A stretch of DNA of 36,866 nucleotides from Candidatus Curtissbacteria bacterium (GTDB lineage: Bacteria; Patescibacteriota; Microgenomatia; Curtissbacterales; GWA2-41-24). Numbering within the stretch: the stretch's first letter is position 1; every line of letters starts with the position of its first letter. Position numbers and translations under genes: made by a program. Shown here piece by piece: positions 1-35,929 of this stretch. Below the pieces are notes generated by a model, which did not search any database, had not been told where the DNA came from, and was given only the letters and a program-made list of their open reading frames with translations. The stretch lies in contig JAUYIQ010000059.1 of the NCBI GenBank assembly GCA_030688205.1, forward strand, positions 1 through 36,866, given 5' to 3'.

Positions 1-684
1 CCCGAAGAAAAAAGAAAAAGAATCGCGAAAATTTATTTCAAAGTATTGGAAAAAGAAGCCAAAAGAATCGGAAACAGCCTGTCCGGCGACAGACGGATTA
101 AATTCTTGGGTCAAGGAACAATATATCCGGACAGAATAGAATCGGCCCAGCCCACAAAACATGCGGATAAAATAAAAAGCCATCACAACGTTACCCTCCC
201 TGAAGGGCTCAAGTTAGAAATCTTGGAACCTGTAGCAGAACTTTACAAAGATGAAGTCAGAAAAATTGGGTTACTGCTTGGAATTGATGAAGAATTTATT
301 TTTCGCCATCCTTTTCCGGGGCCAGGCCTTGCAATAAGGATTGTGGGAGAAGTGACGGAAGAAAGGTTGCAAATTCTACGACTTGTAGACGAGATTTTTA
401 TTACTGAGCTTAAATCAAATAATATATATAATAAGGTAGGACAAGCATTTGCCGCTCTTTTACCTGTTAAGTCCGTCGGAGTGATGGGAGACAGCAGAAC
501 ATATTCTTACATCGTTTCTTTAAGATCCGTTGACACCACAGATTTCATGACTGCCGACTGGTCAAAAATTCCCTACGATGTTTTAGAAAAAATCTCCACG
601 CGTATTGTCAACGAAGTCCGTGGTGTCAACCGCGTTGTCTACGACATTACCCAAAAACCTCCGGCAACCATCGAGTATGAATAA
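1..684 (+). CDS. guaA: GMP synthase (glutamine-hydrolysing), C-terminal part; 5' end outside window
   Basis: Frame open from base 1. Motifs [51 protein letters not shown]. Confidence 0.97.
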
Positions 685-1228
685 ATTCCATCTTTTTGAT
701 ATCGTGGTCGTTTCCTCAAACGCCGGCAAAATTGCAGAAATCAATGATATTCTGGGTACCAATCACCAAGTATCGGCAATCGACATCCCTGAAATTCAAT
801 CATTAGATCTTGACGAAGTAATTACTGCAAAAGCAAAGGCGGCTTATGCCAGAATCAAAAAGCCGGTACTTGTCACAGACGTGAGTTTGGAAATAGAAGG
901 CCTGGGCGGTTTACCCGGACCTTTTGTAAAATACTTCTTAAAAACTTTGGGCGAAGAGAAAACCGTTCAGCTTGTAAAAGGAAGTAAAAGAACTAAGGTT
1001 ACAGATGCTGTTGCAATATACGATGGAAAAACTTTAAAGATTTTTAAAGGTACGGTTTGGGGTAGGGTTGTTCCAAAATCACGAGGTAAAAATGGTTTTG
1101 GATTCGATTTCGTCTTTATCCCGGATGGATACAACAAGACTTATTCTCAAATGCCCACTTCTTTGAAAAACCGGATTTCACACCGTGCCGAAGCGCTAAA
1201 AAAATTAAGAAAATTTTTAGATAACTAA
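677..1228 (+). CDS. rdgB: Non-canonical purine NTP pyrophosphatase (Ham1/RdgB/ITPase family)
   Basis: [38 protein letters not shown] 677 overlaps the guaA stop, so it is a better start than 605. Confidence 0.92.
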
Positions 1229-1229
1229 A

Positions 1230-1823
1230 TTACGAAGTCTTTTTAAAAACTATAAGTCGGTATCCAAGAAAATTCCATATCAACGATAGCCCTGTCGCAA
1301 GTACCTTGGCAAAATTTGCCCAAAGCGTATCCGAATTAACCAAAATAGGAGGGACGAATGTTGTCAGGGCAAAAACTACACCGGTATTTATCGCAAGTCC
1401 AATCAGGGTAACTGCGAAAAAAGTCACGAAATTCGATTTTTTACCCTCGCCAAAGACCCATCCCTTATTCCAATAAAAGCTGTTCAAGACAGCTAAAGAA
1501 AAAGAAGTCGCGTTTAACAAGATAATAAGAGGACCGCTTACAACCCCTGTTCTGGCGATCAAAAAGTTTAAAGCCCCAAAATCAATGGCCGTGTTTAAAA
1601 CTCCAACAAGAGCAAACTTTGCAACCTGCCAAATAATGGGAAATGATTTTCCGATTAAGTTGGCAACAAACATGCCACAAACAATAATAAGTGGCAGTAC
1701 AAAAAGAGATAGAGGGAAAAATGGTATTTTATCCCCGGCGTTTGTTACAAGAAGCGTGGGAATTAAAAAAATCGCAGTTCCAAACCCAGCCGCAAAAGAC
1801 AATATTAAATCTTTTCTACCCAT
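1230..1823 (-). CDS. GtrA-family membrane protein (putative lipid-linked sugar flippase)
   Basis: KFALVGVLNTAIDF, NSFYWNKGWVF, AKVLAT, WNFLGYRLIVFK; multiple TM helices. Confidence 0.85.
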   Translation of the reverse strand: MGRKDLILSFAAGFGTAIFLIPTLLVTNAGDKIPFFPLSLFVLPLIIVCGMFVANLIGKSFPIIWQVAKFALVGVLNTAIDFGALNFLIARTGVVSGPLIILLNATSFSLAVLNSFYWNKGWVFGEGKKSNFVTFFAVTLIGLAINTGVVFALTTFVPPILVNSDTLWANFAKVLATGLSLIWNFLGYRLIVFKKTS

Positions 1824-1870
1824 CTACATATATAATAGCAAAAAGCCCCATATTGGTATATGATAAATTT

Positions 1871-2275
1871 ATGCCCTCTCTCAAACAGGTGTTTGGTATA
1901 GGTCGTTTTCCTCACTATTACGGCGACATTGTAAGATTCTTTTTTTTCCTCGCAGGCACGATTCTACTTCTAAGCTTGCCGCTTTTAAGAAGTCTTATCC
2001 CCATACCCATTTACGTTTCCATTTTTGCAATTCTGGCACTCGTCTTCGTTGCGGGTCTCACAAATCCGGCGCAGAAATGGCTTAGCGCCGTTGACGTTAT
2101 AACGTCTTCGGTTGGTTTTATAGTTTTTGAATATTATGCTGTTTTGACTTTTTCTTCAGCGGAAGACTTTTTCTTCTTCCTTATCAATCAAACGTTGGCA
2201 GCACTTTTTCTTTTTGCATTCTACTTTGCAACAAAAACCATGCGCGGATTCCTGGTTAAGGAAAGAAAAGAATAG
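1871..2275 (+). CDS. Hypothetical 4-TM membrane protein
   Basis: Hydrophobic part of ORF 1691..2275. ATG 1871 avoids overlap with the GtrA gene and lies 6 nt after TATGAT (1859-1864). Confidence 0.7.
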   Translation: MPSLKQVFGIGRFPHYYGDIVRFFFFLAGTILLLSLPLLRSLIPIPIYVSIFAILALVFVAGLTNPAQKWLSAVDVITSSVGFIVFEYYAVLTFSSAEDFFFFLINQTLAALFLFAFYFATKTMRGFLVKERKE

Positions 2276-2315
2276 TTGCACAAAATATTCTAGGGTGTTA
2301 ATCTAAATACAGGCC

Positions 2316-2648
2316 ATGAATATTAAAAGATCGGCAACTGCTTTAGTTGTCTCAACATTCTTATTACTTACCATAGCTACGACAACCTTTGCCCAGACAA
2401 CATCTCCAAGTCCGTCTCCTTCAACTGATCCCTCAGCGAGTCCATCTTCTTCCGTGAGCCCATCACCCAGCGCATCGCCAGACTCCGGAGCCGGAGGTGC
2501 TACCAAGTCCGCTGTACTTGGAGAGACAACGTCGCTTGGCAATACCAGTAACAATAAGGAAATAGCCAAATGGGCTATTGCTTTCGGAGTCGGGATTCTT
2601 GCTTTTCTAATTGGTTTAAAAGTTGCCAGGAGCAAAGCTGAAGAGTGA
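2316..2648 (+). CDS. Small secreted Ser/Pro/Thr-rich surface protein, candidate sortase substrate
   Basis: Signal peptide ending TTTFA, SPSPS low-complexity core, VLGETTSLGNTS, TM helix, basic RSK tail; directly upstream of a sortase. Confidence 0.75.
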   Translation: MNIKRSATALVVSTFLLLTIATTTFAQTTSPSPSPSTDPSASPSSSVSPSPSASPDSGAGGATKSAVLGETTSLGNTSNNKEIAKWAIAFGVGILAFLIGLKVARSKAEE

Positions 2649-3201
2649 TTACTTTATACAGTTAATTATCTTTGGAATGAGCGCAACCATAGTTGCGCTT
2701 CTTGCTATTAAGTTTTATCCCTCACAAATAATTAAAAATCTTCAAGGAGAAGAGAAGGAAAAGCGTATCCAAAGTGCCCGAACTATAGACGCTACTCAGA
2801 CTTCATCGCCTGAGTCTTCACAGCCAACATATATCACAATTCCAAGTGTAAGCATTAACCTCCCGGTTTCACCGGGCCAAATTGTGGATAACCAGTGGAC
2901 GCTTTACGACACCAGAGTTTCCTGGCTGTCGACCTCACAAACACCGGGGAAAGGTAATGTAATCCTTTATGGGCACAACAGGGTTAATATTTTAGCAAAT
3001 CTGGAAAAAGTAACTATTGGTTCTGAAATCAGTGTTAAAACAAAAGAAAAAAAAGACACTTACATTATTTCGGAAAAACGAAAAGTAACCCCTGAGGATA
3101 TAGACGCAATATTATCTCCAAAAGACCAGCTTACAATATATACCTGCAACGGAAACTTCGATGAAAAACGCTTGGTCGTTATCGCCTACCCAAAAGTTTA
3201 A
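2623..3201 (+). CDS. Sortase-family transpeptidase (start may be ATG 2677)
   Basis: N-terminal TM anchor; ITIPSV, PGKGNVILYGHN (His), LTIYTC (Cys), KRLVVIA (Arg). Confidence 0.9.
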   Translation: MPGAKLKSDYFIQLIIFGMSATIVALLAIKFYPSQIIKNLQGEEKEKRIQSARTIDATQTSSPESSQPTYITIPSVSINLPVSPGQIVDNQWTLYDTRVSWLSTSQTPGKGNVILYGHNRVNILANLEKVTIGSEISVKTKEKKDTYIISEKRKVTPEDIDAILSPKDQLTIYTCNGNFDEKRLVVIAYPKV

Positions 3202-3204
3202 AAA

Positions 3205-4728
3205 ATGCTAGCTAAAATAACATCTGCCGCTGTTGTCGGATTGGACGCAGTACCGATAACAGTCGAAGTAGATATTGCGGCAATGGGCCTCCCATCCTTC
3301 ACAATAGTCGGTCTTGCAGACAAAGCAGTTCAGGAGTCGAAAGAAAGGGTACGTGCTGCTCTTAAAAACTCAGGCGCAGATATGCCGCCAAAGAGAATTA
3401 CCATAAACTTGGCACCAGCAGATCTCCCCAAAGAAGGCCCGGCATACGATTTGCCGATAGCGCTTGGAATTCTGGTTGCTTCAGGACAATTGCCCCAGCT
3501 GGATTTTTCCGACGCTATTTTTTTAGGTGAACTTTCACTTGATGGATCATTGCTTCCGATATGGGGAATATTACCCTGCGCAATTTTGGCAAGAGATAAA
3601 AATTTCCACAGCATTTTTCTGCCCGAAGAAAATTTAGAAGAAGCCCAATCAGTAAACAAGATAAAAATTTTTCCTGTCAAATCACTAAAACAACTTTTCG
3701 ACCATTTCGCAAACCCCCAAAAACAAATAACTCCGGCAAACTTTAAGAAACAAAAATATTCAAATATTCAGAACCCGGAATACGATTTTGAAAACATCAA
3801 AGGACAGGAAAGTGCCAAACGCGCTTTAGAAATTGCCGCAGCCGGTAGCCACAATGTTTTGATGAAAGGCCCGCCCGGAGCAGGTAAAACACTTATGGCA
3901 AGAAGTTTTGCAACAATTCTCCCGAACCTTTCTTTTGAAGAAAGCCTGGAAGTTACAAAAATATATTCAGTTGCAAACCTTCTTTCAAGCGATACCCCAA
4001 TAATTTTATCCCGTCCATTCCGCAGCCCGCACCATACAACAAGCAATGTTGGCTTAATCGGAGGTGGAAATACTCCAAGACCCGGCGAAATATCACTGGC
4101 ACACCGAGGCGTACTTTTCCTGGACGAGTTTCCCGAATTTCCAAGACACGTTCTAGAGGCACTACGCCAACCAATTGAGGATGGTGAAGTTACAATATCA
4201 AGAGCTGCAGGCTCCGTAAAATTTCCCTGCAGGTTCTCGCTCGTTGCGGCAGCTAATCCTTGCCCATGCGGATACTTTGGCGACGAAACCAGAAACTGCA
4301 CTTGTAGTCCCTCAACAATTACCACATATCAAAAAAGAATCTCCGGCCCAATTTTAGATCGAATAGATATTCACATTACTGTCCCTGCGATCCCCCCTGG
4401 TAAATTAACAGGAAAGTTTCAATCAGAATCATCAGCCAGCATTCAAAAACGAGTTCAAAAAGCCCGCGACAATCAACTTAAAAGATTTAAAGGTCTAAAA
4501 ATAACGTCAAATGCGGAGATGAACAATAAGCAACTAAAACAATTTTGTAATTTAGACGACCAATCAATCCTTCTTCTTAAACAAGCGATTGCAAAACTGA
4601 ACCTATCCGCCCGCGCATTTCACCGAGTAATCAAAATTGCCAGAACCATCGCCGATCTCGAAGAATCTATCAAAATCAAATCCAATCATATCGCAGAGGC
4701 TCTCCAATATCGACCAACAGATAGTTAA
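3205..4728 (+). CDS. comM: YifB/ComM Mg-chelatase-like AAA+ ATPase
   Basis: ESKERVRAAL, ITINLAPADLPKEG, Walker A GPPGAGKT, RPFRSPHH, GEISLAHRGVLFLDE, NPCPCGY, LSARAFHRVIKIARTIADL. Confidence 0.95.
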   Translation: MLAKITSAAVVGLDAVPITVEVDIAAMGLPSFTIVGLADKAVQESKERVRAALKNSGADMPPKRITINLAPADLPKEGPAYDLPIALGILVASGQLPQLDFSDAIFLGELSLDGSLLPIWGILPCAILARDKNFHSIFLPEENLEEAQSVNKIKIFPVKSLKQLFDHFANPQKQITPANFKKQKYSNIQNPEYDFENIKGQESAKRALEIAAAGSHNVLMKGPPGAGKTLMARSFATILPNLSFEESLEVTKIYSVANLLSSDTPIILSRPFRSPHHTTSNVGLIGGGNTPRPGEISLAHRGVLFLDEFPEFPRHVLEALRQPIEDGEVTISRAAGSVKFPCRFSLVAAANPCPCGYFGDETRNCTCSPSTITTYQKRISGPILDRIDIHITVPAIPPGKLTGKFQSESSASIQKRVQKARDNQLKRFKGLKITSNAEMNNKQLKQFCNLDDQSILLLKQAIAKLNLSARAFHRVIKIARTIADLEESIKIKSNHIAEALQYRPTDS

Positions 4729-33374: not shown

Positions 33375-34052
33375 ATGAGAATAAATAAGTTTTTGGCACA
33401 TGCCGGTGTGGCTTCGCGTCGCAAAGTTGACGAGTTGATTGAAGCAGGCAAAGTCACGGTTAACGCTAAAAGGGCAACACTCGGCCAACAAATAGATCCC
33501 CAAAAAGATGAAATAAAAGTAAATGGCAAACAAATCAAATCTGAAGAAGAATTTGAATACATTATTTTAAATAAACTCAAAAAAGAAACAGTTTTGGAGC
33601 AAGTCAAAACCAAATCGCGCATATACCCGGTAGGAAGACTTGACAAAGAATCGACAGGTCTTATTTTGTTAACTAACGACGGTGAGCTTACAAATCGCCT
33701 AACTCATCCCAGATACCACGTCGAAAAAGTTTACGAAGTTGTCTACCTGGGAAAAGTTGCCGATACGACCATAGGGAGAATAGAAAAGGGGATAGAGCTG
33801 GAAGAAGGCAGAAAAAAAGAAGCGAGAGTAAAAACGTTATCGTCAAATGATCACAAAACAGTTTTAGAAATAACACTTTACGAAGGAAGAAAAAGACAAA
33901 TCAGGAGATTGGCCGAAAAACTTCATCTGCATATTATCGCGCTAAAACGTATTACCATCGGCCCCATAAATTTAGAAGGTCTCGAGTCAGGAAAATTCAG
34001 AAAACTTTCACCTGAGGAAATTTCTGCGTTAAAAAAATCAGCAGGTATTTAA
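33375..34052 (+). CDS. rRNA pseudouridine synthase (RsuA/RluB family, S4 domain)
   Basis: RINKFLAHAGVASRR, PVGRLDKESTGLILLTNDG, EGRKRQIRR. Confidence 0.93.
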   Translation: MRINKFLAHAGVASRRKVDELIEAGKVTVNAKRATLGQQIDPQKDEIKVNGKQIKSEEEFEYIILNKLKKETVLEQVKTKSRIYPVGRLDKESTGLILLTNDGELTNRLTHPRYHVEKVYEVVYLGKVADTTIGRIEKGIELEEGRKKEARVKTLSSNDHKTVLEITLYEGRKRQIRRLAEKLHLHIIALKRITIGPINLEGLESGKFRKLSPEEISALKKSAGI

Positions 34053-34669
34053 CCTCGCCCCTTCCAAATAACTTCTTTATCACCATCTATCATGTTTGCA
34101 TACCTTGCCAGCATAAAAAACCAATCGGACAAACGATTTATATAGATAATGTCGTTTTTGCTGATTTTCTCCATTCCCGCCAAAGCAACAACAGCCCGTT
34201 CTGCACGACGTGCAACTGTTCTTGCCAAATGCAAATGAGAACCAATTACATTTCCTCCTGGCAAAATAAAATTCCTAAGCTGTGGAAGTTTAGAACTCCA
34301 AAAATCAATCTCTTTCTCCAATCTTTTAATATTTTTGGAATCGACTCGTGGAATTATTACCTTCATACTGTTCGGAGTAGCAAGTCCCGCTCCAAGCGCA
34401 AAAAGTTCTACCTGAACCCTCAAAAGTTTTTCTGCGATTTCATCATAATCACTTGTCATTCTGGGGAGCGGAGCGACTCCAGAATCGATTCTGGACAAGC
34501 CAGAATGACGGTTTATGTCTGCTAAAACAACACCAATTAGCGAATTTAACTCATCAATGGTTCCATAAGCATTAATCCTCGCCGAATTTTTATCGACCCT
34601 TTCGCCTCCAAAAAGAGAAGTAGTGCCACTGTCACCGGTTTTGGTATATATCTTAATCCTCTTTGCCAC
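34049..34669 (-). CDS. ATP:cob(I)alamin adenosyltransferase (PduO/MMAB type)
   Basis: KIYTKTGDSGTTSL, YGTIDELNS, FILPGG, LHLARTVARRAER, YINRLSDWFF. GTG 34669 lies 6 nt after TACAAT. Confidence 0.93.
   Translation of the reverse strand: MAKRIKIYTKTGDSGTTSLFGGERVDKNSARINAYGTIDELNSLIGVVLADINRHSGLSRIDSGVAPLPRMTSDYDEIAEKLLRVQVELFALGAGLATPNSMKVIIPRVDSKNIKRLEKEIDFWSSKLPQLRNFILPGGNVIGSHLHLARTVARRAERAVVALAGMEKISKNDIIYINRLSDWFFMLARYANMIDGDKEVIWKGRG
34455..34509. repeat. 55-bp palindromic REP-like element inserted in frame in the adenosyltransferase gene
   Basis: Terminal inverted repeats GTCATTCTGG/CCAGAATGAC and central palindrome CCAGAATCGATTCTGG; encodes RHSGLSRIDSGVAPLPRMT. Confidence 0.82.
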
Positions 34670-34702
34670 GGCCGAATTGTACAATAAATTATTGACGATT
34701 TC

Positions 34703-35176
34703 CTAAAAACTTTTCTCGAGGCGTTGTGTATCACCTAGCGTTTCGTATGAAGAAACTGTTATCTGGTGATTCCACACAGGCGGGTCTCCAAACTCACCCG
34801 CGCGCTTAGATTCAAAAAAACCGCAAATAACGGTGCGTACATACCTGTTATCCGAACCGGGATACTGGTTGATGATTTCACCCTCTGTCCTAATCCATGC
34901 CGAACGTGTGAACTGATCGTCTGAAAGACTCACTTTAAGTATCGAAAGTTTATCTGTCTTAACAAAATATCCTTCAGTACATACGTTCTTTTCGTTGCGG
35001 ACATTTCCGTATGACAAAAGTTCAATAAGATCTATCTTTTTATATTCCGCTTTTCCGAAAAACTGTCCGTACCTGGATAAATTTATGAGGGAGTACAAAG
35101 AAACCCCCACAAGAGCTATCACAAGCAGCAATTCTACGGCGAGTTTACCGTGATAGAATGACAAAGCACGTCTCAT
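34703..35176 (-). CDS. Hypothetical membrane-anchored protein
   Basis: N-terminal TM followed by a beta-rich domain. Confidence 0.7.
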   Translation of the reverse strand: MRRALSFYHGKLAVELLLVIALVGVSLYSLINLSRYGQFFGKAEYKKIDLIELLSYGNVRNEKNVCTEGYFVKTDKLSILKVSLSDDQFTRSAWIRTEGEIINQYPGSDNRYVRTVICGFFESKRAGEFGDPPVWNHQITVSSYETLGDTQRLEKSF

Positions 35177-35182
35177 ACCATA

Positions 35183-35929
35183 ATGTTACCTGAATCTATA
35201 TCCATAGGTCCATTAACCCTCCACTTTTACGGTTTGATAATCGCAATATCAATATATTTAGGCTGGCTTCTTGCAAAAAGGAGAGCTCCTTTCTATAAAA
35301 TTCCCCCGTCACTTCTCGATGAGCCGATTCTTCTTATTCCTCTGCTGTTCTCGATTATTGGCGCAAGACTCTATCACGTTATGGATTATTGGGACGTTTA
35401 CATCCAAGATCTAAAATCTATTATCTATATCTCAAGTGGTGGATTAGGTATCTGGGGTGCTCTTGCCGGCGCTTTTATTGGATTTTGGATAGTTGCAAAA
35501 GTAAAAAAAATTAACCTTTTAGCACTTTTGGATTTATCGGCCCCATCGCTTCTTCTTGGTCAAGCTATAGGTAGAATAGGGAACTATATTAATCAGGAAG
35601 GTTTCGGTCCACCAACAAATTTGTCATGGGGAGTTTACATAAATCCCGAAAATCGCCCGGCCCAGTTTTTGACATCAACACACTTCCACCCGACATTTTT
35701 CTATGAAGCAATCCTCAATCTTCTTTTCTTCTTTTTGATCTTAAAACTGTCAAAAAGAAAAAGACCCGGTCAAGTTTTCGCACTTTACTTAATTTTATAC
35801 TCCACAGGACGCTTCCTCGTTGAATTCTTCCGAATAGATACTGCAACAATAGATAGCTTCAAAATTGCGCAACTACTTTCAGTCATAACAATTCTTGTTG
35901 GAATGAGACTGCTCGTAAAATTTAAATGA
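35183..35929 (+). CDS. lgt: Prolipoprotein diacylglyceryl transferase
   Basis: FYGLII, GARLYHV, GGLGIWG, QAIGRIGNYINQE-FG, HPTFFYE, RFLVEFFR. Confidence 0.95.
   Translation: MLPESISIGPLTLHFYGLIIAISIYLGWLLAKRRAPFYKIPPSLLDEPILLIPLLFSIIGARLYHVMDYWDVYIQDLKSIIYISSGGLGIWGALAGAFIGFWIVAKVKKINLLALLDLSAPSLLLGQAIGRIGNYINQEGFGPPTNLSWGVYINPENRPAQFLTSTHFHPTFFYEAILNLLFFFLILKLSKRKRPGQVFALYLILYSTGRFLVEFFRIDTATIDSFKIAQLLSVITILVGMRLLVKFK

What the first reader, a model, noticed from the sequence alone, without database searches (positions are those of the whole stretch)
34455..34509. Palindromic DNA element translated in frame inside the cobalamin adenosyltransferase
Seen: a GC-richer 55-bp unit with 10-bp terminal inverted repeats and two internal hairpins (ATTCTGGGG..CTCCAGAAT; ATTCTGG-ACAAG-CCAGAAT). 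It adds about 18-19 aa (RHSGLSRIDSGVAPLPRMT) between ELNSLIGV and the next helix, a loop that is normally short in PduO/MMAB. Established: Rickettsia palindromic elements insert in frame into surface loops. Inference: an analogous mobile repeat is creating new peptide segments in this lineage.
Basis: partly seen in the sequence, partly recalled or inferred. Interest (0 to 1): 0.7.

Follow-up and report, generated by a model that had tools for sequence, protein, structure and literature searches.

The report
Hairpin repeat translated inside B12 enzyme
A 57-base pair of DNA hairpins, the two ends of a small nuclease cassette with the nuclease gene missing, sits in frame in a vitamin-B12 enzyme gene of an ultra-small groundwater bacterium and adds a floppy loop to the protein; this kind of repeat is already known from Rickettsia and Neisseria, so it is a clear new example rather than a new kind of element.

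Summary
Window 34455-34509 is an exact 55-bp palindromic unit (57 nt with its CGTC/TGTC tags). It lies in frame in a PduO-type adenosyltransferase gene (34049-34684, minus strand) and encodes RHSGLSRIDSGVAPLPRMT, in a loop that is short in 9 of 18 orthologues and in solved structures.

It is a dimer of two tagged hairpins with stem ATTCTGG/CCAGAAT. The same two hairpins bracket a small GIY-YIG (Ssn-like) nuclease gene in 8 related genomes, so the unit looks like that cassette without its gene.

The family has up to 50 hairpins per related genome. Its 21-nt end is exact in MAGs of several phyla. The exact 55-mer sits in frame in four other genes in metagenomes.

The closest known classes are CGTC-tagged REPs (which include Rickettsia RPE-4 and RPE-6) and the Ssn/NTS hairpin-nuclease pairs. 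It fails the published SRM pattern and some REP metrics.

This genome has only 3 such loci and no cognate nuclease was found, so the copy is probably an orphan relic.

Earlier follow-ups of this scan found the same class on other CPR DNA, including in pduO.

Verdict: a new member of a known kind. Mobilisation by the nuclease is inferred, not shown.

The parts
34049..34684 (-). Host gene: PduO-type ATP:cob(I)alamin adenosyltransferase, 211 aa from a TTG start
   Evidence: ORF; PF01923 at E 1.4e-57 over residues 12-196; best solved relatives are 1rty and 3ci1; AlphaFold2 model with mean pLDDT 87.5.
34454..34510 (-). 57-nt unit on the coding strand, CGTCATTCTGG...CCAGAATGACA = 19 codons (RHSGLSRIDSGVAPLPRMT, residues 59-77): a zero-spacer dimer of two tagged hairpins with the tags outward
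   Evidence: The identical 57 nt sits at the same loop in G017. The exact 55-nt core is in 5 metagenome contigs. Contigs of four metagenome runs break at 34453-34455 and 34509.
34455..34486 (+). Hairpin A (long loop): tag GTC, stem ATTCTGG/CCAGAAT, 14-nt loop GGAGCGGAGCGACT, tail C
   Evidence: Contigs also break at 34486 in four runs. The same hairpin type lies upstream of the cognate GIY-YIG gene in 8 of 8 relatives.
34487..34509 (-). Hairpin B (short loop), read on the minus strand: GTC tag, stem ATTCTGG/CCAGAAT, loop CTTGT, tail C
   Evidence: Its 21-nt core is exact in at least 122 stretches of public genomes of several phyla. It overlaps the 3' end of the cognate GIY-YIG ORF in relatives.
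34479..34494 (.). Junction palindrome CCAGAATCGATTCTGG, where the two hairpins abut without a spacer (read as SRIDSG)
   Evidence: One search found 11 loci in 7 of 32 family genomes. One search placed 9 of the 11 in stop-to-stop ORFs of 200 aa or more.

Best explanation
The unit is a dimer of two CGTC/TGTC-tagged palindromic repeats (REP-like hairpins of the Ssn-related kind). It amounts to the left and right terminal hairpins of a roughly 0.35-kb cassette that in related genomes carries a small single-domain GIY-YIG nuclease gene, here joined directly with the gene missing, much as a MITE relates to its parent IS. It entered the stretch of pduO that encodes the loop between helices 1 and 2. 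It persists there because this variant is 57 nt (19 codons) and stop-free in the frame used, so it is translated as a disordered surface loop that the enzyme tolerates. SHOWN: the anatomy; the multi-copy family; the presence/absence difference among orthologues; the bracketing of the nuclease gene by the same two hairpins; and in-frame copies in unrelated genes. INFERRED: that the GIY-YIG protein (or ssDNA processing that it triggers) spreads the hairpins; that the peptide is made; and that it is neutral for the enzyme. In this genome the copy is most likely an orphan relic, because only 3 loci carry the family and no cognate nuclease was found.
For: Anatomy and chance.

Family: 19 of 32 family genomes have ATTCTGG hairpins (G017 50, G012 26, G024 25, own 4). 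The reversed-pattern control gave 0-1 per genome.

Link to the cassette: 8 of 8 genomes with a GIY-YIG at least 63% identical to the G018 protein have the gene bracketed by a long-loop hairpin upstream and a CTTGT/ACAAG hairpin at the ORF's 3' end (PF01541 at E 1.9e-11). All 8 have 3 or more hairpins, and 0 of 13 hairpin-free genomes have that clade. More distant GIY-YIG paralogues carry other stem types.

Insertion rather than native loop: 9 of 18 orthologues have the short loop. Solved PduO structures align on both sides of the unit. A close relative in run X5 has 24 nt in place of 87.

Other copies in frame: uvrA linker, 63 aa against 39-45 aa in 10 of 25 orthologues. tatD-family gene, a 12-aa insert absent from 18 of 18 orthologues. 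The exact 55-mer is in frame in ThyX, RecG-like, PolyA_pol/CCA and FemAB genes, 5 of 5 metagenome contigs.

Translation: the intragenic zero-spacer dimers measured are 57, 78 and 108 nt with their two tag bases (the G002 copy was not measured to both ends), and the one of 118 nt lies in a 96-aa ORF. Two of three frames are open on each strand.

Tolerated loop: the AlphaFold2 model has helices 26-51 and 69-93 with a loop of pLDDT about 61 between them.

Orphan status: the best own-genome match to the cognate nuclease is 25.6% identical, E 3e-4. The conserved cassette site upstream of serS is empty in this genome.
Against: The element does not match the published SRM degenerate pattern or the NTS consensus. 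Its stem is 7 bp and one loop is 14 nt, outside the 8-9 bp stems and 4-5 nt loops given for CGTC REPs (Table 1).

Eleven genomes have hairpins but no cognate-clade nuclease. One of them is G024, with 25 hairpins (88% complete).

No target-site duplication or conserved target sequence was seen at the three own loci or at the pduO sites.

No movement was observed and no nuclease activity was tested. Membership of the GIY-YIG protein in the Ssn family proper (CDD cd10448) could not be tested here. NCBIfam gave no family and the PDB sequence search gave only weak hits.

The published role of SsnA in Neisseria is restriction of transforming ssDNA, not transposition (Chenal 2025, Discussion).

The identical 57 nt at the same loop in two genera is not explained by simple random insertion.
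Confidence: 0.78

Rival explanations
1. The hairpins are recognition sites of an Ssn-type ssDNA nuclease whose job is host-level control of incoming or single-stranded DNA, as in Neisseria. They multiply by recombination or gene conversion between copies, not by nuclease-driven transposition. The pduO copy would be a by-product fixed where it does no harm.
For: SsnA is shown to restrict transforming ssDNA that carries NTS repeats, and its mobility is only a hypothesis in the paper (Chenal 2025, Discussion). No target-site duplication was seen. The identical 57-mer at the same pduO loop in two genera, and different repeat families at that loop in 5 other genera, would fit conversion between repeat copies. 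The cassette itself sits at one conserved site upstream of serS in 6-7 genera, which looks vertically inherited rather than jumping.
Against: Exact 55-mers lie in four unrelated genes of different organisms. Gene conversion needs a pre-existing related copy at each site. G010 and G047 show a ~19-nt duplicate of the serS 5' end beside the cassette, which looks like an insertion scar.
Confidence: 0.15
2. The hairpins are REPs moved by the RAYT-like Y1 (IS200/IS605-type) tyrosine transposases that these genomes also encode.
For: PF01797 Y1_Tnp genes of about 220 aa are present in the own genome (1), G017 (6), G012 (2) and G018 (4). RAYTs are the accepted mobilisers of GTAG-tagged REPs (Di Nocera 2013 abstract).
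Against: None of 7 Y1 genes examined has GTCAT-tagged ATTCTGG hairpins at its flanks. They have other inverted repeats, and one pair is GTAG-tagged. G024 has 25 hairpins and no Y1 match. The element's tag is CGTC/TGTC, not GTAG.
Confidence: 0.04
3. The unit is present in the DNA but is not translated: it is removed from or bypassed in the mRNA, or acts as a cis-regulatory RNA or DNA structure inside the gene.
For: It forms a strong predicted hairpin. No RNA or protein data are available to show the peptide.
Against: The intragenic zero-spacer copies measured keep the frame: three different lengths (57, 78, 108 nt) are all multiples of three and stop-free, while a 118-nt copy lies outside long ORFs. 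That constraint is expected only if they are translated. No Rfam family matches.
Confidence: 0.03
4. The segment is a native, ancestral loop of this PduO lineage, or an assembly artefact that joins two contigs at a shared repeat.
For: 7 of 18 orthologues also have long inserts at this loop. Logan contigs of runs X1 and X2 break inside the repeat, and none spans the whole gene.
Against: The inserts differ in family, orientation and length between genera, and the same-genus genome lacks one. The same DNA occurs in unrelated genes. Both flanks encode the two halves of one PduO protein in one frame, and G017 has the same junctions independently.
Confidence: 0.02

Closest known systems
CGTC-tagged REP superfamily (Di Nocera, De Gregorio & Rocco 2013, BMC Genomics 14:522, PMC3733652; sections 6, 14, 15 and 17 part 1 read). 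It includes Neisseria dRS3 and Rickettsia conorii RPE-4 and RPE-6.
   Same: An unpaired terminal CGTC/TGTC tag. A stem that starts with A-T. A 5-nt loop in one hairpin. Frequent dimers made of two different hairpins. Intragenic in-frame copies that encode about 20-30 aa, with uvrA a repeated host gene.
   Different: The stem is 7 bp, not 8-9. The partner hairpin has a 14-nt or longer, modular loop. The tail does not fit CCA. The hosts are CPR and other uncultured phyla that the paper did not survey. The paper found no dedicated enzyme, whereas here a GIY-YIG gene is bracketed by the repeats in relatives.
Ssn site-specific ssDNA nucleases with NTS/SRM hairpins (Chenal et al. 2025, Nat Commun 16:2388, PMC11893778; sections 6, 7, 10, 12 and 17 read)
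   Same: The hairpin-gene-hairpin architecture around a single-domain GIY-YIG ORF of about 95-100 aa. The shared head and tail GTCATTC...GAATC (NTS = CGTCATTCCCGCGMAVGCGGGAATCYRG). Each nuclease clade has its own stem variant. Genomes with the clade carry several to dozens of hairpins.
   Different: The element does not match the published SRM search pattern. cd10448 membership and ssDNA cleavage were not tested. The paper reports NTS as rarely inside genes (2%), whereas all 3 loci here are intragenic. The words 'Candidat', 'CPR' and 'Patescibacteria' do not occur in the paper's main text.
Rickettsia palindromic elements (RPE; Ogata et al. 2000, recalled, and as cited in Di Nocera 2013)
   Same: Short palindromic repeats inserted in frame in many housekeeping genes of a small-genome bacterium, translated as extra surface segments.
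   Different: RPE-1 is longer (recalled as about 100-150 bp). No sequence comparison with any RPE was made here. Here a parent cassette with a nuclease gene can be pointed to in relatives.
REPIN/RAYT systems (GTAG-tagged REP doublets with Y1 transposases; Bertels & Rainey 2011 recalled; Di Nocera 2013 abstract)
   Same: A doublet of inverted hairpins as the repeated unit. A single-copy enzyme gene flanked by the same hairpins. Works like a non-autonomous element paired with a domesticated or selfish enzyme.
   Different: The tag is CGTC/TGTC, not GTAG. The flanked gene is GIY-YIG, not Y1. The Y1 genes of these genomes carry other repeats.

Membership tests
CGTC-tagged REPs (Di Nocera 2013) | Unpaired terminal CGTC motif (TGTC or CCTC allowed) at one end of the hairpin | tested here: met
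   On the coding strand the unit reads CGTC-ATTCTGG...CCAGAAT-GACA, with TGTC on the other strand. The same tags occur on copies in relatives.
CGTC-tagged REPs (Di Nocera 2013) | Stem of 8-9 bp with A-T at the first and second positions | tested here: not met
   The stem is ATTCTGG/CCAGAAT, a perfect 7 bp. It starts A-T as required, but it is one base pair short of the published range.
CGTC-tagged REPs (Di Nocera 2013) | Loop of 4-5 nt | tested here: inconclusive
   Hairpin B has a 5-nt loop (CTTGT/ACAAG). Hairpin A has a 14-nt loop, and relatives have loops up to about 40 nt with nested hairpins.
CGTC-tagged REPs (Di Nocera 2013) | Short unpaired 3' tail, consensus CCA | tested here: not met
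   The tails are C followed by variable bases (Cgat, Cttt, Cctt).
Ssn / SRM system (Chenal 2025) | Repeat matches the SRM degenerate pattern HGTCWYN(0-2)YYVSBRHN(0-5)WNVSBRGN(0-2)RNCYNB | tested here: not met
   The regex found no match on either strand of 34441-34525. The whole genome gave 1 match against 3 in the reversed control.
Ssn / SRM system (Chenal 2025) | Hairpins flank a small single-domain GIY-YIG gene on both sides | tested here: met
   Met in relatives only: 8 of 8 cognate-clade genes (G018, G023, G013, G022, G012, G017, G047, G010), plus 4 of 122 public loci. Not met in this genome: its three small GIY-YIG genes examined (of 4 PF01541 matches) lack these hairpins.
Ssn / SRM system (Chenal 2025) | Nuclease belongs to CDD cd10448 (GIY-YIG_unchar_3) | not testable with these tools
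   Only PF01541 could be scored (E 1.9e-11). NCBIfam gave nothing. No Neisseria SsnA sequence was available for comparison.
Ssn / SRM system (Chenal 2025) | Sequence-specific cleavage of ssDNA next to the hairpin | not testable with these tools
   This needs a biochemical assay.
GTAG REP / RAYT | GTAG tag, and hairpins flanking a Y1 transposase gene | tested here: not met
   The tag is CGTC/TGTC. 0 of 7 Y1_Tnp genes are flanked by this hairpin.
Rickettsia palindromic elements | Palindromic repeat inserted in frame in several unrelated protein genes and absent from orthologues | tested here: met
   pduO, uvrA and tatD-family genes in this genome; ThyX, RecG-like, CCA/PolyA_pol and FemAB genes in metagenomes. 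Sequence relatedness to RPEs was not tested.

The most novel reading that the evidence does not exclude
The zero-spacer 57-nt dimer is a coding-adapted miniature offspring of an Ssn-type GIY-YIG cassette. On this reading Ssn cassettes are true mobile elements that shed gene-less, frame-neutral derivatives. These colonise permissive loops of housekeeping genes (pduO, uvrA, recG, thyX, cca) and move between organisms, even phyla, in groundwater communities. This would give the long-orphan CGTC REPs and RPE-type in-frame elements their mobiliser, and would show a route by which selfish hairpins write new peptide segments into essential proteins.
Probability: 0.3. Interest if true: 0.6.

Novelty: new member of a known kind. 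Interest (0 to 1): 0.36.

Why it matters
The finding extends tagged palindromic repeats and their small GIY-YIG partners to ultra-small CPR-type bacteria and to other uncultured phyla.

It shows a clean parent-and-miniature relation between a nuclease cassette and a 57-nt dimer. That bears on an open question: what moves CGTC-type REPs and Rickettsia-like in-frame elements?

It also identifies protein sites that absorb such insertions again and again, namely the helix 1-2 loop of PduO and the inter-domain linker of UvrA. This is useful for annotation, because these peptides are not native protein sequence. It may also be useful as natural evidence of insertion-tolerant loops.

For this one locus the consequence is modest: most likely a neutral extra loop.

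Tried and rejected
- **Rfam.** Scans of 34000-34800 and 34600-35300 found nothing meaningful. The weak partial Cobalamin-riboswitch hit (E = 4) vanished on rescanning.
- **Fuzzy regex.** A fuzzy regex search of the genome timed out and was replaced by blastn-short.
- **Naming the nuclease.** NCBIfam and the PDB sequence search gave no usable name for the GIY-YIG protein.
- **Expression.** No RNA holder was listed, so nothing can be said about expression.
- **Spanning contigs.** Logan contigs of X1 and X2 do not span the repeat. This is a property of those short contigs, not evidence about the locus.
- **Target sites.** I looked for target-site duplications or a shared target sequence at the three own loci and at the pduO sites and saw none.
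- **Literature.** Searches for the element in CPR ('Candidate Phyla Radiation' + palindromic + in-frame + repeat; Ssn + GIY-YIG + hairpin + Patescibacteria) returned nothing on this topic. The claim 'not described for CPR' rests on those two searches only. The supplementary tables of both papers were not opened and might list such hosts.
- **Taxon.** The genome's taxon was not verified.
- **Active site.** Whether the loop is near the active site was not examined.

Full report
**1. The observation**

Window 34455-34509 reads GTCATTCTGG...CCAGAATGAC. It is 55 bp with an exact 10-bp terminal inverted repeat and occurs once in the window.

It consists of two hairpins that share the stem ATTCTGG/CCAGAAT:
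- Hairpin A, 34455-34486, has a 14-nt loop.
- Hairpin B, 34487-34509, has a 5-nt loop.

Both matches to ATTCTGG-N3-25-CCAGAAT in the window lie here, against 0.00 expected from shuffles. As ssDNA the unit folds at -12.5 kcal/mol (z = -3.7; 0 of 200 shuffles fold as well).

The unit lies in the minus-strand ORF 34049-34684. This is a PduO-type cobalamin adenosyltransferase (PF01923, E 1.4e-57). On the coding strand the unit with its two flanking bases is CGTCATT...GAATGACA, 57 nt or 19 codons. It encodes residues 59-77, RHSGLSRIDSGVAPLPRMT.

**2. It is an insertion in a loop that is normally short**

I aligned the stretch from DELNS to R(V/I/L)Q in 18 orthologues from related genomes.
- 9 have an 81-nt short form, including the only same-genus genome (G001).
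- 2 have 102 nt.
- 7 have 129-255 nt.
- This genome has 144 nt, 63 more than the short form.

Solved structures align on both sides of the unit and skip it. For 1rty, query residues 11-63 and 80-205 align. For 3ci1, residues 5-62 and 83-208 align. An AlphaFold2 model (mean pLDDT 87.5) puts the segment between helix 26-51 and helix 69-93 (model numbering; protein numbering is +9). It forms a loop with pLDDT about 61.

In one groundwater run (X5), a contig about 91% identical to the gene carries 24 other bases in place of 34442-34528. That is again a net difference of 63 nt.

**3. It is a member of a repeat family**

*In this genome.* blastn-short and motif searches find two more loci.
- An 80-bp, three-hairpin version lies in uvrA (C51:6007-6086).
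- A 23-bp single hairpin lies in a tatD-family gene (C50:1840-1862).
- Both are in frame (Pfam).
- The UvrA linker from TGKYL to HNLKNI is 63 aa here, against 39-45 aa in 10 of the 25 orthologues where both motifs were found (5 of 30 loci gave no motif pair).
- The TatD insert of 12 aa is absent from 18 of 18 orthologues.

*In the taxonomic family.*
- 19 of 32 genomes carry ATTCTGG hairpins.
- Counts are 50 in G017, 26 in G012, 25 in G024 and 0 in the same-genus G001.
- The reversed-pattern control gives 0-1 per genome.
- Loops are modular and often hold nested hairpins.

*In public genomes and metagenomes.*
- Those genomes are labelled Nitrospirota/Thermodesulfovibrionales, many CPR groups, Gammaproteobacteria, Bacteroidetes, Ignavibacteriaceae and Desantisbacteria.
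- In four groundwater metagenome runs the summed contig depth over 34444-34511 is 18-3281, against 0-40 in the flanks (248-355 in X1, whose flanks run at about 25). Contigs break at 34453-34455, 34486 and 34509, which marks the repeat's ends and its internal boundary.

**4. What the family is**

Earlier follow-ups of this scan on other CPR windows pointed to two papers. I read the relevant sections of both.

Di Nocera et al. 2013 describe a superfamily of REPs tagged with CGTC (often TGTC).
- Their stems begin with A-T and their loops are 4-5 nt.
- They are mostly organised as dimers.
- They have intragenic in-frame copies, notably in uvrA.
- Neisseria dRS3 and R. conorii RPE-4 and RPE-6 are members.
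- They had no known enzyme.

Chenal et al. 2025 show that the Neisseria repeat (NTS, CGTCATTCCCGCGMAVGCGGGAATCYRG) and related 'SRM' hairpins flank small GIY-YIG genes. The products of these genes (Ssn) cut ssDNA next to the hairpin. The authors note that the hairpin-gene-hairpin layout looks like an insertion sequence.

The window's hairpins share the head and tail GTCATTC...GAATC with NTS and differ in the inner stem.

**5. Link to a nuclease cassette**

All 32 family genomes encode small GIY-YIG ORFs, 2-17 PF01541 matches each.

One clade, at least 63% identical to the G018:C1 protein, is present in 8 genomes. In 8 of 8 the gene is bracketed in the same way:
- Upstream lies a long-loop ATTCTGG hairpin.
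- At the 3' end lies the CTTGT/ACAAG hairpin, which the ORF reads through as ...DSGQARMT.

These are the two hairpins of the window's unit in the same mutual orientation. The 57-mer is therefore the cassette's two ends joined without the gene.

Association with hairpin counts:
- All 8 genomes with the clade have at least 3 hairpins.
- None of the 13 hairpin-free genomes has the clade.
- 11 genomes, including this one and G024 (25 hairpins, 88% complete), have hairpins without it.
- Related genomes are not independent, so this is an association, not a test.

More distant paralogues are flanked by hairpins with other stems: ATTCCCGC, ATCCTGAA and ATTGC. This matches the nuclease-hairpin pairing described by Chenal et al.

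In this genome the best match to the cognate protein is 25.6% identical (E 3e-4). The site where the cassette sits in 6-7 genera, between an HD-domain gene and serS, is uninterrupted here. With only 3 loci, the copies in this genome look like orphans. The assembly is 86.7% complete, so absence of the nuclease is not proven.

**6. The rival enzyme**

Y1_Tnp (PF01797) genes exist in this genome (1), G017 (6), G012 (2) and G018 (4), but not in G024. None of the 7 I examined is flanked by GTCAT/ATTCTGG hairpins. They carry other inverted repeats, and one pair is GTAG-tagged. Both REP superfamilies therefore seem to coexist in this lineage, each with its own enzyme gene.

**7. In-frame copies and a coding-compatible variant**

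The exact 55-mer occurs in 5 metagenome contigs, and in 5 of 5 it lies in frame in long ORFs:
- a Thy1/ThyX gene,
- a RecG-like helicase,
- a PolyA_pol/CCA-type nucleotidyltransferase (two contigs, the same gene),
- a FemAB-family gene.

It is always read CGT CAT ... ATG ACA, in either orientation (RHSGERSDSRIDSGQARMT or RHSGLSRIDSGVAPLPRMT).

In the 32 family genomes the zero-spacer junction CCAGAATCGATTCTGG occurs at 11 loci in 7 genomes. Nine of the 11 lie in stop-to-stop ORFs of 200 aa or more. The lengths measured, with the two tag bases, are 57, 78 or 108 nt (the G002 copy was not measured to both ends). The 118-nt copy lies in a 96-aa ORF, and one 108-nt copy (G024) lies in a 93-aa ORF.

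For comparison I took 400 kb of G017 and G012 and picked the spaced ATTCTGG dimers by hand from the table. I left out single hairpins, other stem types, zero-spacer dimers and the cassette cluster. That left 11 dimers, of which 2 are in such ORFs. Fisher's exact test on 9/11 against 2/11 gives p = 0.009. The caveats are that the sample is small, the copies are related, and a stop-to-stop ORF is only a proxy for a gene.

Each strand of the 57-mer is open in 2 of 3 frames. The simplest reading is a selection filter: only frame-neutral, stop-free variants survive inside genes. A subfamily specialised for coding DNA is not excluded.

**8. Hot spots**

At the same PduO loop, 5 of the 7 long inserts carry recognisable C/TGTCAT tags but belong to different families or orientations:
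- G017 has the identical 57 nt plus two other palindromic blocks.
- G012 has the dimer in the opposite orientation with a longer loop.
- G002, G021 and G009 have ATTGC/ATCGC-stem dimers.
- The 102-nt forms (G014, G006) hold small palindromes like those that flank a Y1 gene.

The identical 57 nt in two genera has diverged flanks on both sides. It is therefore not a transferred gene segment. Independent insertion, or conversion from a shared pool, is more likely than vertical descent. I saw no target-site duplication and no common target sequence. I cannot tell whether the recurrence reflects targeting or only that this loop is the permissive site.

**9. Verdict**

The element is a new member, with a new stem family and new host lineages, of a known class: CGTC/TGTC-tagged REPs and Ssn-related hairpins, to which some Rickettsia RPEs belong.

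Strict membership tests are mixed.
- Met: the tag, the A-T stem start, one loop and the cassette architecture.
- Not met: stem length, tail and the published SRM pattern.
- Not testable here: cd10448 membership and ssDNA cleavage.

The two literature searches found no description of this class in CPR. The supplements of the two papers were not opened.

Earlier follow-ups of this scan reached the same class on other CPR genomes, including an in-frame pduO copy.

Open points: translation of the peptide, its effect on the enzyme, and mobilisation by the nuclease all remain inferred.

Noticed in passing
L245-L252 (G018:C1, G023:C32, G013:C54, G022:C26, G012:C25, G010:C45, G047:C20); own genome C41 near 11696: The cognate GIY-YIG cassette sits at one conserved site, between an HD-domain gene (ending ...SWQKK) and the start of serS (MLDIKFIREN), in 6-7 genera. 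This genome has that junction uninterrupted. In G010 and G047 a ~19-nt copy of the serS 5' end lies on the upstream side of the cassette, like an insertion scar or a carried replacement start.
   Followed up: partly
own genome C100:188-970; L303-L308: RAYT-like Y1_Tnp genes of about 220 aa (1 in this genome, 6 in G017, 2 in G012, 4 in G018) are flanked by their own inverted repeats. The G018:C15 copy has GTAG-tagged GGGGTTSAACCCC / GGGGTCSGACCCC hairpin pairs. Similar small palindromes occupy the pduO loop of G014 (L008) and G006 (L004). GTAG-type and CGTC-type repeat systems therefore coexist in this lineage.
   Followed up: partly
own genome C93:10332-10354 and C27:2631-2674: Two further tagged hairpins have the stem ATTCCCGC. 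The C93 copy (cGTCATTCCCGCGAAAGCGGGAATC) is almost the Neisseria NTS consensus and differs only in the 3' tail.
   Followed up: no
own genome C50:1704-1727 (tatD-family gene): A second tagged hairpin (stem ATTCTCG/CGAGAAT, read as KILDQAEND) lies 136 bp from the first in the same gene. A similar 4-5 aa segment is shared with G013 only among 18 orthologues.
   Followed up: partly
L216, L219, L228 (uvrA linkers of G001, G013, G014): The UvrA inter-domain linker of these relatives holds runs of near-heptamer repeats (read as SSQFTV...) instead of hairpin elements. Earlier notes of this scan describe heptamer repeats as common in this lineage.
   Followed up: no
L040-L161 (public genomes with the 21-mer): In Nitrospirota/Thermodesulfovibrionales MAGs the ATTCTGG-ACAAG hairpin is usually paired, across a spacer of roughly 10-35 nt, with a hairpin that has a different stem but the same loop (ATTCCCG-CTTGT-CGGGAAT). 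The loop is conserved while the stems differ. 20 of 126 occurrences lie in stop-to-stop ORFs of 150 aa or more.
   Followed up: partly
L015 (G017 pduO) and L011 (G009 pduO): Both genes carry a second insert elsewhere in the protein: KHSLRSSSASQRTAGL before the last helix in G017, and STSLKLRGAS in the helix 2-3 loop in G009.
   Followed up: no
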